Source of the DNA: a virus
Lineage: Duplodnaviria; Heunggongvirae; Uroviricota; Caudoviricetes
Length of the DNA stretch: 18,932 bases
Strand: one strand, 5' to 3'
Virus record (IMG/VR): IMGVR_UViG_2537561693_000022
Made by a program: the position numbers. Positions 1 through 6,000 of the stretch are shown in pieces. Each line of letters opens with the position of its first letter. Within the stretch, counting starts at the first letter, position 1.

Positions 1-3000
1 TTGCCTCCCCCCCGTTGATGGGTAAAATAGCCGCAATTTTTCGTTTTCAACAAGCGCGGCGCGATGCCGCTTACTCAAGAAGAAAGAATTATGACGTTGT
101 CTCCTTATTTGCAAGAGGTGGCGAAGCGCCGCACTTTTGCCATTATTTCTCACCCCAATAATTAAGTCTAAATTAAAGCTCTTTTACTTTTTCAAAGTCC
201 TTTCAGTTAATTGATGTTTGGTTTTATAAGTCATTTGAATACAGTTAGTTATGTGGCTTCTTTAATTGAAAATTCTTTCATGTAACTTTAAATCGATCAG
301 GTTGCTTTCATCAAAAATCTGTACATATTTTTGTACATAATGTACAAAGCAGTAGAGGTGTTTTGCGATTTGTACAAGGTGAGTAATGGCGCTGTCTGAT
401 GCGTGGTTGCGTTCAGTCGTTGGAAAGGAACGTGATAAGGTTTTGGTTAAATCCGATCGTGATGGTCTGTCTGTCAGAGTATCACCGAAAGGTCGCGTAG
501 TGTTCCAATATCGTTATCAATGGGCAGGGAAAGGTGAGCGCCTTGATATCGGAACTTACCCGGCAACTGGATTAAAAGAGGCCAGAGAAGAAGTTATCCG
601 TCTCCGTGGTGAACTCGAGTCAAACCGCAATCCACGATTAGTCAAGCAGGCTGAAAAACGAAAAGCTACTGAAGCCATGACGGTAGAGTCTGTGATCCGT
701 GCCTGGTATGAAGCATATTGTGTAAAAAATAAAAAAGGTTCTGAACAGATACTCCGCTCGTTTGAGCTGCACCTGTTCTCTAAAATCGGGAATATCCCTC
801 ACGATGCAGCTACATTGCATGATTGGTTAGAAGTCCTAGAGCCTCTTAGCACCAAGACTCCAGCAATAGTAGACCGATTGCTAATTAACGCAAAGCAGGC
901 TCATGTCTGGGCGTATAAGAGAAAGCTCATTGAAACTCGCCCACTGTCGGATATCACGGGTAAAGATATGGATATCCGTAAAGGTCAGAAAAAACGGTTT
1001 CTGACACATGATGAAATTAGCATCCTTTATGCTGCGATCGATGGTTCTCGAATGGTTCCTAAATACCGAGCCTTCATTAAACTATTGCTGCATTTTGGTT
1101 GCCGTAGTTCAGAGCTAATTACTGCTAGGGTGGATGATTTTGATTTCATAAATAAGGTATGGACTGTACCACCAGAACGACATAAGACTGGGGACATAAC
1201 AGGCGAACCGCTAAAGCGGCCCATTATTGAACCGGTTGAAGAGCTTATAAAATACGTTATCTCTATGAACAACGGTTCCGATATGCTTTTTACTAAGGAA
1301 GGAAGCAGGGAGCCAGTTGGTCGGACATCATTGCAGTCGCTGCCTTACAATTTAATGCAGTTCGCATGGCGACGTTTGGGGTATCAATTTCCTCATTGGT
1401 CTCTTCATGATTTGAGACGAACAGCACGAACAAACTTTTCTGATCTTACTGCGCCTCATATTGCTGAAATAATGCTCGGTCATAAACTGCCAGGGGTATG
1501 GCAAGTTTATGATAAGAGCGATTATCTAGAAGAACAGCGTAAAGCCTATCAGGCATGGTGGGATAGGGTTGAATCGATTCTTACTTACACTAATTTAGGT
1601 TCCAACAGACAGCCTATTGAATAATGAATAGACATACAGAGTAAGAAAATAGTAATGATTCTTGGATTATAATTAACTGATTGCTGATATTTCGATTTGC
1701 CGATTTATGAAGAGACGGTCATTATACTTATAAAAACACCACTCCTTATCCTTACAGAAATAAGGAGTGGAAACAGTTATGGCTGAGACTCTGGTTTAGC
1801 AATCTCGTTTATAAATTTCTTAGCTACAACAGTCTCATACTTTCTATAATCATCAAGATATTGAACATCTATATGATTTTTGTAGCGAGCATTAAATTTA
1901 TTTGCAGCCCCTGTTTTATCATCTTTACGTTCATCCGTTGGTCTGAAAAATTTATGGTAGCGGCGGGGTGATACCCCCTCAAAATCACAAAATATTACTT
2001 TGGAAGATTCTTCGTTCTTTGTTATTGCATCATTATGCAGATCAAGAGCAAGGCTTTTATCAAATGGCTCTATATATACTACTTTTTTTATTCCAGATGC
2101 GACAATATGCCTTGCACAGTTGTGGCAGGGATAGGTTGTCGTAAAAAGAATTTTATCTTTAGTATCGCCGTTTTGTTTTCTAGCCATTGATGTAATGACG
2201 TCCATTTCAGCATGAATTGATCTGGAGTACTCCATTACACTTGATATTTTGCTGTCTTTGTAAATGCCTTCTGCAATATTATCTAATTTGTTTAGAAGTC
2301 GTGTTATATTAATATCGGCAACAGTTTGTCCTGCGGAAATACCTAATACACTTCTTACTTCGGTTGATAATATGCTTTTTATACGGTCTTTAATTTTTAG
2401 CTTGTTTGCATCATTATAACACTTACCACTTTTGTGAACGCATCGATGATCGTTATCAAAATCATCACTGCTATACAACCCGCCACCAGCTTTAGGTACG
2501 TCGTTCTTACCCACGGCAAGCAAATTCCCTTCATCATCAAACAGTGCAGCCCCTACTTGACGTGATAAACAAGCTGATTGTAATGATGTTGAAAAGGCAG
2601 CATACATACCTTTCTCGTTAAAAGTTGGTGTTAAACCATTTTTGCCATGAATAAGACCGAAAAACCGATCAATCTTCTTCTTTAATTCACTTTTTTGGCT
2701 GAAGTTATTTTTAATAAAAAAATCTGAATCAAGAATGGTTTCCCCGGTTCTTTGTCCATACGGATCAGAGGATTTATTATCAATATTGATAATTAAATGA
2801 AGGTCGTCCTTTGCCGATTCGTCAGCAATGAGATTCGGAATTCGGTAATCTAAATCGCGCAAAACTCCTAACAAATAGAAATTATGCTGATATATAACTC
2901 TGAATAACTCTATTTCTTCCGGCCTTTTGAATTGATCAATGATGAAGACAGTACCTTTATATTCATCATTATTATAATCAATATTCTTTTTCGCTGTTGC

Positions 3001-6000
3001 GATTGCTGCAATAGCAGCTTCTGCAAGCAACTCATTTTTTTCGTAATGTTTACGAAGTTTATTGGCAATATCCTGGAGTTTTAAATGTCTATTAACTTGT
3101 GTGCTTTCGGATACCTTCAGTGCTGCTGGCTCAAAATATAATGGGTCTTCCATAAGCGCACTTATGCGGATGTGTACAACATTATACCCCCATTCTTTGG
3201 ATATCTCTTCGATAATTTTGTTTATCGTTCTCATGCCACATCCAACATATCCACACAATCCAAGATAAATATCTTTTGATTGTCGTGAATTCACAATCTC
3301 AAGTGATGATGCCGATGTTGAGCCTTTTTTTTCATTCAGCTTTTGTGGAGTTTTTTTTGCTGCTTCAGCCATTGCTAATTACCTAGTCGAAAACTATATC
3401 AGTATTTAATATTTCAAAAAATGCATCAAGAATTTCTTTATTTTTCTTTTTACTTTCAAATGAAATGACATTATCTTGATTAAATGTTGTTAATTCAATG
3501 CAGATAGAATCAACCTGATCATTGGCGGCGATGCTCGATTCTATTTCATTAAATGCTATTACATTCATTTATCTTATCCAAACATAATAAAAAACCATAT
3601 GGCCTTTAGTGTACAACAAAACCATACTCTTTCCCCTCATTTTAGAGGGGGAAGTGTGGTCCACATCATGTTTTTTCCCACCCATGAAAATGTTCACCTA
3701 GGCTGGTGAGGCATTTTATGTACATCAACTCTTTGAGTTGAATCATTATTTTAGTATTTTTTCTATCATTGTGTAAATGTCTTCGTTTCAATACATCATG
3801 CTTGGGGAGCGGTCCCCGTTTCCTGATAATTAATGCTTGTGGATAGCAACGTCCGTGCCTGTATCGCTCAGACAGACGCTTACCGTGCCATAGACGTGTC
3901 TGTTCACATACGTCATTCAATAACTCCTGCAAACCTGTAAATCTTGCGTGAAGCCCATTTATTTGGGCATGATTTAATATCAGGATCTGGAAAATCAGGC
4001 CTGTACTTCTGGCCAGTTCTCCGGTTTACGCTGTTCCAGCGAAGAACTGTCGATACTGAAACGCCACAGAAGTCGGCGACTTGTTTAGTTGTCATTAAGT
4101 TGTTCATTACTTCACCTCCTGCGGCGGTTCCGGTAGCGGCATCCAGTGGGTTACTTTCGATGCCGGTTCTTCTCCATTGTCAGTAACTGCCCACCATTTG
4201 TTTCTCGAACAATCATAATACCCTTCGAAGGTATCGCACTCAGTCCAGCCGTAAGACTTACCCCAACACCAAACATACTGTTTATCGTTCGGCATTCGCT
4301 CACTACAGCTTATCCAACCATCCGGAGTTACCGGAGAGTTGCCCGACAGCTTGTTCAACTTGTAAGTCTGGCTTACAGGTTTGGCACCATGAAGCATGGT
4401 GGCGCGGCAGGTGTTCCAGCCTTCATCAAAACCGACTATGCCATTATTTAAAGACGGACGAGCATCTGGCACCACCAGTACTGGCTTGGCTATATATAGC
4501 GGCTGAACATACCAGCCCTTTGATAACCAACTGTCAGCAATGTTTTTGCTCCTGGTTATTGCCGGAATACCTAAGCCATTGTCTGAATGCAGCCATGCCA
4601 CCGGCTCCTCTTCCAGCGATGCCAGAGCAATTTCATAAGCACGGCGCTCAATATCGTCTCGAACCTCTAGGCTGCTGATTCGTTCTTTGATTTCTTTAAT
4701 CAGTTCTTTATTGGTAAATGTGGTCATTATGCTCCAGCCTCCGGCGCTTTGGGTATTACTGCCCAGTGAGTGATATTGAAGTTTTCAAGGTCCCCGACCT
4801 GAAATGTCCACTGCCATTCTCCGGTTTCTTTTTGTCCCCAGGTGTACCAGAGAGAACGCCAGCCAATCAGCCAGCCTTCTCCGTTAGCATCAAATAACAG
4901 AACACTTTCATTTGCTGGTGGCAGTTCAGCTGACACTGGTATTATTTTGTTTTCCAGTGCCGCACATTTAGCTTCAAGCGCGTCGAATTTACGTACCAGG
5001 TACTCAGCATTTGTTTCGTTCACTTTCAGATCTCGCGGTACACATTTCCCGCGAAGAAACCCTTCCATTTCGAAAACATTCATGCGCATTTGCGTAACTC
5101 CGATAATTCGTTAAAGCGTTCCATAAACATCCCGTAGGCATGGCCTGGAGCCAGTGGAATCACGTTGATCATCTCTGTTGCCGGGATACCTTCCAGCACA
5201 GGCCAGAAAGAGCCATCATCAAGCCCGAGATCGCGGCGTTCGGTTGCCAGCATGATGAGATCGGCATATTTCACGGGTGTACTCATAACCGGGGGTAACC
5301 CGTATTTCTCACGGATTACGGCGTCTATTTTTTATTCCATCCGTTTATAGTCAGGAAGAAGGCGTTTCAGTGGAGCCGGGATGTCCTGGCAATACGCTTC
5401 TGTTGCATCATGCATTAAGGCTTCAAAAGCAAATTCCTGCGGCACCAGCTGGCTGCAAAGAACCGCATGTTGGGCGACGCTGTAGAAGTGCGAAAGATGA
5501 CCGGCAAAGCGACAGATATTTGAAAGGGAAACCGCGATATCGTTAATATTGATGTCGTCTTTATTTATCTTGTCATAATAAAAATGCTTCCCGGAAAAAG
5601 TTTTAATAAATGACATTTTGTTCTCCACGTATATGCGCTGCACCGCGCTGAATTCTGGTAAAAAGAATCCCTCACCATCCGGCGATTATTGAGTAAATTA
5701 CGTTTCCATAAATGCCCCCGCAGGGGCATTTGCAGTAATGAAATCAGGCGGTGAAAGTACCAATAAAGGTTTCTACTTTGCTGTCTTTGAATTTCTCAAC
5801 AAGCAGATCACGAAATTCGTTAGCCATTTCTTCCTGCACCGCTTCCAGCTGAATAATGCGCAGAACCAGTACAGGACGATCGCCAGTGATAATGCTGAGG
5901 CGTAATTTAAATGGACGTTCTTTCAGGCCTTCAAACGGAACGCATTTAAATTCAAATGCCACTGGCATAATGTCTTTGGTCTTCGCTTCGACAGACTCCA

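What the first reader, a model, noticed from the sequence alone, without database searches (positions are those of the whole stretch)
1731..3568. Integrase-proximal cargo: kinase-like/cytidine-deaminase fusion gene with a coupled 61-aa upstream ORF
A 531-aa protein carries the two zinc-ligand motifs of the cytidine/dCMP deaminase fold (HAE at nt 2206-2214, PCHNC at nt 2116-2130) behind a ~240-aa N-terminal domain with a degenerate P-loop (GLCGYVGCGMRT). This matches the architecture of AvcD/DCD-type effectors that deplete dCTP/dCMP during phage infection. The gene is visibly AT-rich, sits in the int-xis gap where prophages commonly carry defence cargo, has its own terminator, and is preceded by a 61-aa acidic ORF that stops 10 nt before its start. 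The lysine-less P-loop and the protein-coding partner do not obviously match described AvcID systems, so this may be a variant or undescribed nucleotide-depletion module.
Basis: partly seen in the sequence, partly recalled or inferred. Interest (0 to 1): 0.85.

Follow-up and report, generated by a model that had tools for sequence, protein, structure and literature searches.

The report
Known AvcID dCTP-deaminase phage-defence cassette
This is an ordinary, already-annotated copy of the AvcID/dCTP-deaminase anti-phage system, carried as swappable cargo between the integrase and excisionase of an E. coli prophage. The one surprise is that its small upstream partner, published as a non-coding RNA, evolves like a real protein-coding gene.

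Summary

The gene is a textbook member of the anti-phage dCTP deaminase (AvcD/DcdV) family. It matches PADLOC dCTPase at E 1.6e-163 and passes the NCBIfam NF041025 equivalog cut-off. RefSeq already names it "anti-phage dCTP deaminase". The predicted fold is an NMP-kinase domain followed by a dCMP-deaminase domain.

The Walker-A lysine is absent throughout the family. Every described AvcI lies in a same-strand small ORF just 5' of avcD. The tested ETEC H10407 p58 system (61% identical deaminase) also has a 61-aa ORF.

It is therefore not a new module. The same prophage in another strain carries an AIPR gene in this slot.

One result goes beyond the literature. The 61-aa ORF shows an in-frame excess of synonymous change (p = 8.6e-7, dN/dS about 0.25-0.3). 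Its product is detectably homologous to the products of the Vibrio AvcI ORFs. AvcI loci therefore seem to encode a conserved small protein as well as the published RNA.

The parts
3748..3777 (-). Sigma-70-like promoter (TTTACA, 18 nt, TAAAAT), the likely start of the cassette's operon
   Evidence: Consensus scan, 10 of 12 matches. The element is conserved in 8 of 12 loci that otherwise have unrelated upstream contexts. Promoter activity is inferred, not shown.
3569..3747 (-). Conserved 5' leader of the window-type cassette, including a hairpin CCCCCTC/GAGGGG at 3651-3633
   Evidence: About 90% column identity across 12 loci. RNAalifold keeps the hairpin with only G-U-compatible changes. The leader is not conserved in the 74%-identity relative L022.
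3383..3568 (-). 61-aa ORF at the AvcI (antitoxin) position. It carries a protein-coding substitution signature.
   Evidence: Same position, orientation and size as the published AvcI ORFs. Matches phrog_9966 at E 1.5e-43. Always 61 codons with no indels in 12 loci. There are 31 synonymous versus 37 nonsynonymous codon changes against an expected synonymous fraction of 0.19, p = 8.6e-7; the two off-frames look neutral. dN/dS is 0.25. A profile search finds a 61-aa relative at E 2.6e-7 upstream of a 74%-identical deaminase.
3493..3554 (-). Conserved RNA hairpin inside the 5' half of the 61-aa ORF
   Evidence: ORF nt 14-21/68-75 and 27-31/57-61 pair in the same register in the minimum-free-energy folds of the window and of L022 (60% nt identity). 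One pair changed on both sides and several changed to wobble pairs. Synonymous divergence is halved in this half, pS 0.163 versus 0.312.
3373..3382 (-). 10-nt spacer. A Shine-Dalgarno-like UAGGU overlaps the small ORF's TAG stop.
   Evidence: Read. The spacer is invariant or nearly so in 12 loci. Translational coupling is an inference.
1777..3372 (-). avcD, the anti-phage dCTP/dCMP deaminase (531 aa)
   Evidence: PADLOC dCTPase E 1.6e-163. NCBIfam NF041025 equivalog scores 463 bits against a cut-off of 400. RefSeq WP_001399668.1 is named 'anti-phage dCTP deaminase'. It is 61% identical to the tested ETEC AvcD.
2638..3285 (-). N-terminal P-loop NMP-kinase-like domain (about aa 30-245). The lysine-less Walker A GLCGYVGCGMRT is at 3226-3261 and the Walker B D146-Q147 at 2932-2937.
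1993..2625 (-). C-terminal zinc-dependent dCMP-deaminase domain (about aa 250-460). HAE is at 2206-2214 and PCHNC at 2116-2130.
1729..1770 (-). Intrinsic terminator of the cassette
   Evidence: A 13-bp stem with 5 G-C pairs, a loop of 6, then TGTTTTTAT. It is conserved in all 12 loci with a compensatory stem change.
1625..1728 (-). Conserved trailer of about 105 nt beyond the terminator; it travels with the cassette and its function is unknown
   Evidence: Homology among loci in unrelated contexts continues to about 165 nt past the stop codon and then ends. It holds no ORF of 30 aa or more, and its fold z-score is -1.0.
386..1624 (+). Prophage tyrosine integrase (context; one side of the cargo slot)
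   Evidence: Pfam Phage_integrase, Arm-DNA-bind_3 and Phage_int_M. It lies next to yjjG in the identical E. coli record.
3913..4107 (-). Excisionase (context; other side of the cargo slot)
   Evidence: phrog_1553 excisionase, E 7.7e-36. There is also a weak HTH_17 match.

Best explanation
The locus is an AvcID-type (DcdV/DifV, 'dCTP deaminase') anti-phage nucleotide-depletion cassette of about 2.2 kb (window about 1625-3800). It sits as exchangeable cargo between the integrase and excisionase genes of a lambdoid E. coli prophage integrated beside yjjG.

One operon runs from a sigma-70-like promoter through a conserved leader, the 61-codon AvcI-position ORF and avcD, and ends at an intrinsic terminator.

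By homology with the tested Vibrio and ETEC systems:
1. AvcD is made constitutively but is held inactive after translation by the abundant, short-lived product of the upstream region. The published inhibitor is the AvcI RNA.
2. When an infecting phage shuts off host transcription, the inhibitor decays.
3. The freed AvcD deaminates dCTP and dCMP to dUTP and dUMP, and phage DNA replication starves.
4. Both the kinase-like and the deaminase domains are needed.

What is shown here: family membership, catalytic and nucleotide-binding residues, fold, cassette architecture and mobility. What is inferred from published homologues: enzymatic activity, inhibition by the upstream element, and the trigger.
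For: - **Profile matches:** PADLOC dCTPase E 1.6e-163. NCBIfam 'anti-phage dCTP deaminase' equivalog scores 463 bits, above its 400-bit cut-off. Pfam dCMP_cyt_deam_1.
- **Existing annotation:** 100% identical DNA occurs in 11 or more complete E. coli genomes, annotated as anti-phage dCTP deaminase. The exact protein is seen on 377 contigs.
- **Closest tested relative:** 61% identity over the full length to AvcD of ETEC H10407 p58. That locus has the same layout of a 61-aa ORF, a short gap and a 532-aa deaminase, and it was tested experimentally.
- **Conserved residues:** invariant C-G-x-x-G-x-G, DQ, HAE and PCHxC in 33 homologues, including V. cholerae AvcD. These match residues whose mutation abolishes function.
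- **Accessory and mobile:** the cassette is in 49 of 5,426 E. coli genomes. It also sits in P4-like satellites, ICEs, defence islands next to GmrSD, BamHI, EcoRII and GAPS4, and in prophage contigs.
- **Cargo slot:** the same prophage slot holds an AIPR gene in strain KMi012.
Against: - No experiment exists for this allele. The nearest tested homologue is only 61% identical, and defence spectra differ between homologues.
- The published inhibitor is a non-coding RNA. Here the upstream ORF shows clear protein-level selection, so the nature of the inhibitor in this clade is not settled.
- The promoter is only a consensus match, and the scan found fewer promoter-like sites than in shuffled sequence.
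- Some family members work without any upstream element. The AW1.7 construct carries only about 85 nt of upstream sequence.
Confidence: 0.93

Rival explanations
1. The system is a protein-antitoxin (type II-like) or dual RNA-plus-peptide system. The 61-aa acidic product of 3383-3568, rather than or in addition to the RNA, binds and inhibits or regulates AvcD. The 'AvcI' transcript would then be a small mRNA whose product matters.
For: - **In-frame excess of synonymous change:** 31 of 68 codon changes against an expected fraction of 0.19, p = 8.6e-7. Both off-frames look neutral.
- **dN/dS:** 0.25, against 0.67-0.71 in the off-frames.
- **Amino-acid differences:** 11-15 observed against 17.5-21.6 expected under random placement, P <= 0.002 per pair except the near-identical window-L005 pair (P = 0.13).
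- **ORF integrity:** the ORF stays at 61 codons with no indel down to 39% aa and 60% nt identity.
- **Profile-profile homology:** to ETEC-type peptides, P = 5e-4; to the Vibrio/Klebsiella/ICE peptides, P = 1.3e-3.
- **C-terminal motif:** eight divergent lineages end in ...(A/S)x(K/E/Q)(L/I)xW-stop.
- **Vibrio pair:** the V. cholerae and V. parahaemolyticus ORFs show the same signature, 17/7/28 differences by codon position, P = 0.0024.
- **Predicted structure:** a C-terminal helix at residues 29-55 with pLDDT 70-78.
Against: - In V. cholerae, constructs without a ribosome-binding site, or with start codons changed to stops, still inhibit AvcD. AvcI RNA is reported to form a complex with AvcD and inhibit it in vitro.
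- One V. cholerae genome has a 1-nt deletion that breaks the ORF. This may be a sequencing error.
- The AF2 model of the peptide is poor overall (pLDDT 55), and the N-terminal half is not confidently folded.
- A conserved RNA hairpin also lies inside the ORF, so an RNA function is likely as well.
Confidence: 0.35
2. The gene is a housekeeping or phage-metabolic dCMP deaminase (ComEB, T4 Cd or Dcd-like) that supplies dUMP for thymidylate synthesis, not a defence gene.
For: The catalytic domain is the dCMP-deaminase fold. The best solved relatives are T4 and cyanophage dCMP deaminases. It is encoded on a prophage.
Against: - The NCBIfam ComEB score is 40 bits against a cut-off of 219.
- It carries an extra 240-aa kinase-like domain typical of the defence family.
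- It is present in only 49 of 5,426 E. coli genomes.
- It sits in a cargo slot that holds an Abi-type gene in a sister prophage, and beside restriction and other defence genes elsewhere.
- It passes the equivalog model for the defence family.
Confidence: 0.02
3. The protein is a polymorphic-toxin or nucleic-acid-editing deaminase (MafB19, Bd3614 or APOBEC-like) that mutates phage DNA or RNA rather than depleting nucleotides.
For: Secondary Pfam matches to MafB19-deam (31.4 bits, above its 27-bit cut-off), Bd3614-deam, SNAD4 and APOBEC families fall on residues 378-451.
Against: - These matches overlap the stronger dCMP_cyt_deam_1 match and belong to the same superfamily.
- The top fold matches are all free-nucleotide deaminases.
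- There is no secretion or delivery domain and no immunity gene.
- Tal et al. found no DNA or RNA editing by the family member they tested.
Confidence: 0.02

Closest known systems
AvcID of E. coli ETEC H10407 plasmid p58 (Hsueh et al. 2022; NC_017723, WP_000951932.1)
   Same: Both have a two-domain deaminase of 531/532 aa (61% identity over the full length) and a same-strand 61-codon ORF ending 10-12 nt upstream. The catalytic and P-loop residues are the same. The small ORF products are distantly homologous in their C-terminal halves (hhalign P = 5e-4, residues 28-61 to 28-61). The ETEC region 5' of avcD neutralises its own AvcD, and the system lowers dC nucleotides and protects against several coliphages.
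   Different: The ETEC system sits on a small mobilisable plasmid, not a prophage. The 5' leader and the N-terminal half of the small ORF are unrelated in sequence. ETEC AvcI inhibits only its own AvcD, so cross-neutralisation with the window's partner is not expected.
AvcID (DcdV/DifV) of Vibrio cholerae VSP-1 and V. parahaemolyticus
   Same: The domain architecture and invariant residues are the same, including Met at the Walker-A lysine position. A small same-strand ORF lies upstream, and its product aligns with the window's peptide (NVISF/KVIQF, Lys-rich stretch, amphipathic helix; hhalign P = 1.3e-3). The mechanism is published: labile AvcI is lost after transcription shut-off and AvcD then deaminates dCTP/dCMP.
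   Different: Deaminase identity is only 44-45%. The gap between the small ORF and avcD is 77-82 nt, not 10 nt. The Vibrio peptide is basic and ends in Trp, whereas the window's is acidic and ends in Phe-Asp. RNA-only function was demonstrated only for V. cholerae.
dCTP deaminase of E. coli AW1.7 and U09 (Tal et al. 2022)
   Same: Same family by the authors' definition: an N-terminal kinase-like domain plus a C-terminal deaminase, over 350 aa, associated with defence islands. It has a lysine-less nucleotide-binding motif (GSGC), and both domains are required. It depletes dCTP on infection and is thought to be triggered by transcription shut-off.
   Different: AW1.7 is 576 aa and was cloned with only about 85 nt of upstream sequence, so no small ORF is present. 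Neither upstream sequence resembles the window's leader. It is a more distant subfamily.
T4 Cd and PBCV-1 bi-DCD dCMP/dCTP deaminases (PDB 1vq2, 7fh4)
   Different: These are single-domain metabolic enzymes with allosteric dCTP/dTTP control. They have no kinase-like domain, no antitoxin partner and no defence role.

Membership tests
AvcD / anti-phage dCTP deaminase (NCBIfam NF041025, PADLOC dCTPase) | Passes the curated family profile over its full length | tested here: met
   NF041025 equivalog scores 463.2 bits against a cut-off of 400, covering residues 35-483 and profile positions 2-437 of 437. PADLOC PDLC02373 gives E 1.6e-163.
AvcD / anti-phage dCTP deaminase | Two-domain architecture: N-terminal P-loop kinase-like domain plus C-terminal dCMP-deaminase domain, over 350 aa | tested here: met
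AvcD / anti-phage dCTP deaminase | Zinc and catalytic residues H-A-E and P-C-x-x-C. Mutation of E384 and C411/C414 (V. cholerae) or C370/C401 (AW1.7) abolishes function. | tested here: met
   H387-A388-E389 and P415-C416-H417-N418-C419 are present, and all but N418 (nearly invariant) are invariant in 33 homologues.
AvcD / anti-phage dCTP deaminase | Lysine-less Walker A (C-G-x-x-G-x-G-x) and Walker B D-Q in the kinase-like domain | tested here: met
   C40, G41, G44, G46, D146 and Q147 are invariant. V. cholerae has GLCGLIGAGMNS against the window's GLCGYVGCGMRT.
AvcD / anti-phage dCTP deaminase | Deaminates dCTP/dCMP and protects against phage | not testable with these tools
   Only homology is available; the nearest tested relative is 61% identical.
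AvcID toxin-antitoxin pair (AvcI partner) | A small element of about 170-220 nt immediately 5' of avcD, in the same orientation and co-transcribed, coinciding with a small ORF | tested here: met
   A 186-nt ORF lies 10 nt upstream on the same strand, with no terminator between it and avcD. The layout matches ETEC p58 and the published description.
AvcID toxin-antitoxin pair (AvcI partner) | The partner acts as an untranslated RNA (type III-like antitoxin) | tested here: inconclusive
   A conserved RNA hairpin lies in the ORF's 5' half and synonymous change is reduced there. The ORF also carries a clear coding signature. No Rfam family exists for AvcI.
AvcID toxin-antitoxin pair (AvcI partner) | The partner neutralises its own AvcD and is lost on transcription shut-off | not testable with these tools
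   Experimental property; shown for Vibrio, P. mirabilis and ETEC homologues.
Housekeeping dCMP deaminase (ComEB, TIGR02571) | Passes the equivalog cut-off | tested here: not met
   40.2 bits against a cut-off of 219.45, and the match covers only residues 384-448.

The most novel reading that the evidence does not exclude
AvcI is not simply a non-coding RNA. Across the AvcID family (window type, ETEC, Vibrio, Klebsiella plasmid, ICE and phage-borne relatives down to about 40% AvcD identity), the 'antitoxin' locus is a conserved gene for a protein of mostly 56-67 aa (one relative has 78 aa). Its product has an xV(I/V)xF motif, a Lys-rich stretch, and a C-terminal amphipathic helix ending in an aromatic residue. 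It is translated and under purifying selection.

The system would then be a dual RNA/protein antitoxin, or a protein-regulated one. In this clade the peptide is acidic and its stop codon is embedded in avcD's ribosome-binding site, so translation of the small ORF may also set AvcD dosage.
Probability: 0.45. Interest if true: 0.6.

Novelty: already known. Interest (0 to 1): 0.3.

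Why it matters
As a defence gene the locus adds nothing new. It is one more copy of a characterised, database-annotated nucleotide-depletion system, in a prophage cargo slot of a kind already well known.

Its use is as a clean natural example. The cassette's limits can be read off from a dozen unrelated insertion contexts, and the same prophage slot holds a different defence gene in a sister strain.

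The part worth a specialist's attention is the evolutionary evidence that the AvcI position encodes a conserved small protein. If confirmed, it would revise the classification of AvcID as a type III (RNA-antitoxin) system. It would also raise the question of what the peptide does: inhibition, sensing, or dosage control through translational coupling. Simple recoding and frameshift mutants can test this.

Tried and rejected
1. **Solved AvcD structure.** A sequence search of the PDB found none; only dCMP-deaminase domains matched.
2. **Rfam.** A scan of 1600-4200 at a permissive E-value gave no relevant family, so AvcI has no Rfam model.
3. **GTDB species-representative genomes.** A scan with the single protein returned only two loci. 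I therefore fetched loci through the small-ORF homologues instead.
4. **Direct BLASTP of the window and ETEC small peptides.** Not significant (E 0.74). Homology appeared only with profiles.
5. **Covariation for the leader-plus-ORF RNA within the window clade.** Uninformative, because the sequences are about 90% identical. Only 1 of 78 predicted pairs changed on both sides. The fold z-score of the ORF region alone is 0.1, although the 368-nt leader plus ORF gives -2.8.
6. **Antisense ORF as the source of the 3-nt periodicity.** Rejected: no plus-strand ORF of 40 aa or more overlaps 3383-3568.
7. **Minus-strand ORFs 3569-3697 (42 aa) and 3666-3932 (88 aa).** Treated as spurious. They lie in or across the conserved leader and promoter, and the 88-aa one spans the point where homology between loci ends.
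8. **Whether the tested P. mirabilis AR379 AvcID belongs to the window clade.** Could not be established. The accession was not retrievable, and the Nature Microbiology paper (PMC9830645) and the preprint's supplements are not held.
9. **The conserved trailer at 1625-1728.** Found no ORF and no significant structure.

Full report
**1. The observation**

- The minus strand carries a 531-codon ORF (1777-3372) preceded by a 61-codon ORF (3383-3568). The small ORF's TAG stop lies 10 nt before the large ORF's ATG.
- HAE is encoded at 2214-2206 and PCHNC at 2130-2116. The motif GLCGYVGCGMRT is residues 38-49.
- The small product has 12 acidic and 4 basic residues.
- A 13-bp stem followed by a T-run sits at 1770-1739.
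- GC falls to 0.33-0.36 over the region, against 0.42-0.50 on either side.
- The flanks are a P4-type tyrosine integrase (386-1624) and an excisionase (3913-4107, phrog_1553 E 7.7e-36).
- The rest of the window is a lambdoid prophage. It includes DUF551 proteins, an S24 repressor, KilA-N, DUF968, antiterminator Q and a DNA methylase.
- The window is 100% identical to several complete E. coli chromosomes, in which the prophage lies beside yjjG.

**2. What the large gene is**

It is an unambiguous member of the anti-phage dCTP deaminase family, called AvcD or DcdV by Hsueh et al. and dCTP deaminase by Tal et al.
- PADLOC's dCTPase model matches at E 1.6e-163.
- NCBIfam's equivalog NF041025, 'anti-phage dCTP deaminase', scores 463 bits against a cut-off of 400.
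- Pfam finds the dCMP/cytidine deaminase zinc-binding region.
- RefSeq already names the protein (WP_001399668.1) accordingly. The exact sequence is on 377 contigs in the public collection.
- An AlphaFold model built on 33 homologues has mean pLDDT 83.
- In the 33-sequence alignment, which includes V. cholerae AvcD, these residues are invariant: C40, G41, G44 and G46 (P-loop); D146 and Q147 (Walker B); H387, A388 and E389; and P415, C416, H417 and C419.
- These are the positions whose mutation abolishes function in the published systems. They are G29A/C30A and C370A/C401A in E. coli AW1.7, and S52K, D162A/Q163A, E384A and C411A/C414A in V. cholerae.
- The 'degenerate, lysine-less P-loop' is therefore the family's normal motif. 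V. cholerae AvcD even has the same Met at the lysine position.

**3. What the small ORF corresponds to**

The literature says otherwise.
[quoted passage not shown] Each such region neutralised its own deaminase.
- I retrieved the ETEC plasmid p58. It carries a 61-codon ORF, a 12-nt gap and a 532-aa deaminase that is 61% identical to the window's.
- The window therefore has the canonical AvcID layout. No Rfam model exists for AvcI.

**4. The cassette and its mobility**

The pair recurs with identical geometry (61 codons, 10 nt, 529-531 codons). Hosts include Budvicia, Morganella, Klebsiella, Salmonella, Cronobacter, Yersinia, Serratia, Proteus, Enterobacter and metagenomes.

The neighbourhoods are unrelated. 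They include P4-like satellites (primase, Psu, Ogr/Delta), ICEs (TraU, ParM), and islands beside GmrSD, BamHI, EcoRII or GAPS4. Twelve IMG/VR prophage contigs carry the window type, usually at a contig end.

Aligning these loci shows where homology starts and stops. It starts at about window 3800, just upstream of a promoter-like TTTACA, 18 nt, TAAAAT (3777-3748). It runs through a leader of about 170 nt with a conserved hairpin (3651-3633), both ORFs, and the terminator, whose stem shows a compensatory change. It then continues for a further 105 nt or so of unexplained conserved trailer, to about 1625.

In E. coli the cassette is accessory, present in 49 of 5,426 complete genomes. By contrast, 421 genomes have the adjacent xis-DUF551 segment. 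In strain KMi012 the same prophage at the same chromosomal site carries an AIPR (Abi-type) gene between int and xis.

**5. Most likely mechanism**

By homology, the operon produces AvcD together with an abundant, unstable inhibitor from the upstream region. Phage-induced shut-off of host transcription removes the inhibitor. AvcD then converts dCTP and dCMP to dUTP and dUMP and starves phage DNA synthesis.

Shown here: family membership, residues, fold, architecture and mobility. Inferred: activity, inhibition and trigger.

Two rivals are poorly supported.
- *Housekeeping dCMP deaminase.* The ComEB model scores 40 bits against a cut-off of 219, and the gene is accessory and sits in a defence context.
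- *Nucleic-acid-editing toxin deaminase.* There are only secondary, overlapping Pfam hits, no delivery domain, and no editing was seen for the family member Tal et al. tested.

**6. An unexpected side result: the AvcI-position ORF evolves as a protein-coding gene**

*Substitution pattern in the window clade.* I compared 12 distinct loci (75-98% peptide identity).
- Variable columns fall 17/13/31 on codon positions 1/2/3 (chi-square p = 0.012).
- Nei-Gojobori dN/dS is 0.25 in frame, against 0.71 and 0.67 in the two off-frames. The deaminase itself gives 0.09.
- Counting codon-state changes gives 31 synonymous and 37 nonsynonymous, against an expected synonymous fraction of 0.19 (binomial p = 8.6e-7). 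The off-frames give 0.22 and 0.19 (p = 0.3).
- Placing the observed substitutions at random predicts 17.5-21.6 amino-acid differences per pair. The observed values are 11-15, with P <= 0.002 for 10 of the 11 window pairs; the near-identical window-L005 pair has too few substitutions to test (P = 0.13).
- No antisense ORF could produce this periodicity.

*Deeper relatives.*
- A profile of 23 peptides searched against 1.84 billion representatives finds one further protein. It is also exactly 61 aa and aligns end to end (E 2.6e-7).
- That protein lies 7 nt upstream of a deaminase 74% identical to the window's. It is 39% identical in protein and 60% in DNA to the window's ORF, without gaps. The 5' leader is unrelated.
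- Profile-profile comparison links the window-type peptides to the ETEC type (P = 5e-4, residues 28-61 to 28-61).
- It also links them to a set from Vibrio, a Klebsiella plasmid, an E. coli ICE and four phage contigs (P = 1.3e-3). Here NVISF-ESKKKNKE-ILDAFFEIL aligns with V. cholerae KVIQF-TEVKKKSAS-VQATRALLE.
- All eight members of that second set end in ...(A/S)x(K/E/Q)(L/I)xW-stop.
- The V. cholerae and V. parahaemolyticus ORFs, the pair for which RNA function was reported, also differ mainly at third positions (17/7/28). They show 24 amino-acid differences against 31.4 expected (P = 0.0024), and an ORF would stay open by chance only 4.5% of the time.
- Relatives at 35% AvcD identity or less lack such an ORF. 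Tal's AW1.7 construct also has none.

*Evidence that an RNA is also under selection.*
- A hairpin in the ORF's 5' half (3554-3493) forms in the same register in the window and in the 60%-identical L022 sequence. One pair changed on both sides and several changed to wobble pairs.
- Synonymous divergence in that half is about half that of the 3' half.
- AlphaFold predicts only the C-terminal half of the peptide with any confidence: a helix at residues 29-55 with pLDDT 70-78.

*My reading.* The locus is both a structured RNA and a small mRNA whose product is under selection. This does not contradict the V. cholerae experiments. There, start-to-stop and RBS-less constructs, over-expressed from Ptac, still blocked filamentation. 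It does suggest that the 'non-coding' label is incomplete. I found no paper in the held library that reports this.

**7. Verdict**

The finding is real and correctly identified as an AvcD-type nucleotide-depletion system, but it is already known and already annotated. Its supposedly unusual features are family norms. I rate overall interest as low to moderate. The only reason it is not lower is the family-wide coding signature of the AvcI ORF, which is testable and would revise how the system is classified.

Noticed in passing
window 1625-1728 (minus-strand sense): About 105 nt beyond the cassette's terminator are conserved in all 12 loci despite unrelated downstream neighbours; homology then stops abruptly. 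The stretch holds no ORF of 30 aa or more and has no significant fold. A promoter-like TCGAAA, 18 nt, TATAAT (1695-1666) points outward. It could be a 3' element of the cassette or a remnant of a recombination site.
   Followed up: partly
L023 1253-1423, L025 1248-1418, L041 409-582, L045 1110-1346, L048 1254-1433, L055 1227-1403, L019 124-306, L020 2137-2325: The small ORFs upstream of AvcD homologues at 41-50% identity to the window all end in a shared C-terminal motif, ...(A/S)x(K/E/Q)(L/I)xW-stop. They also share an xV(I/V)xF plus Lys-rich core with the window's peptide. The original paper reported no similarity among these ORFs.
   Followed up: partly
L024 about 1270 (V. cholerae GCA_050556025.1): A 1-nt deletion in an A-run would frameshift the AvcI ORF in one V. 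cholerae assembly. It is either a homopolymer sequencing error or a natural ORF-null allele, which would be useful for the RNA-versus-peptide question.
   Followed up: no
L063 3065-4765 (E. coli KMi012, same prophage and site): The int-xis slot holds an AIPR-family (abortive-infection type) gene instead of avcID, so the slot exchanges defence cargo between otherwise near-identical prophages.
   Followed up: yes
window 15202-15627 (+), within the AT-rich stretch 14750-15750: A 141-aa ORF with no Pfam match (phrog_4748, unknown function, E 7.5e-91) lies between antiterminator Q (14127-14921) and a DNA methylase (16205-17257). GC drops to 0.37-0.39 there. The position and composition suggest a second moron downstream of Q.
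   Followed up: partly
window 3373-3385: The small ORF's TAG stop is embedded in the Shine-Dalgarno-like UAGGU of avcD, and the 10-nt spacer is almost invariant across loci. ETEC has UAGGAAG with 12 nt. This suggests translational coupling between the small ORF and avcD.
   Followed up: no
window 5080-5643 and 5744-6568 (minus strand): The prophage encodes YfdR (a 5'-deoxynucleotidase, per RefSeq in the identical record) and YfdQ/YfdP close to the dCTP deaminase cassette. A second nucleotide-metabolism enzyme thus lies in the same early region. No link was examined.
   Followed up: no
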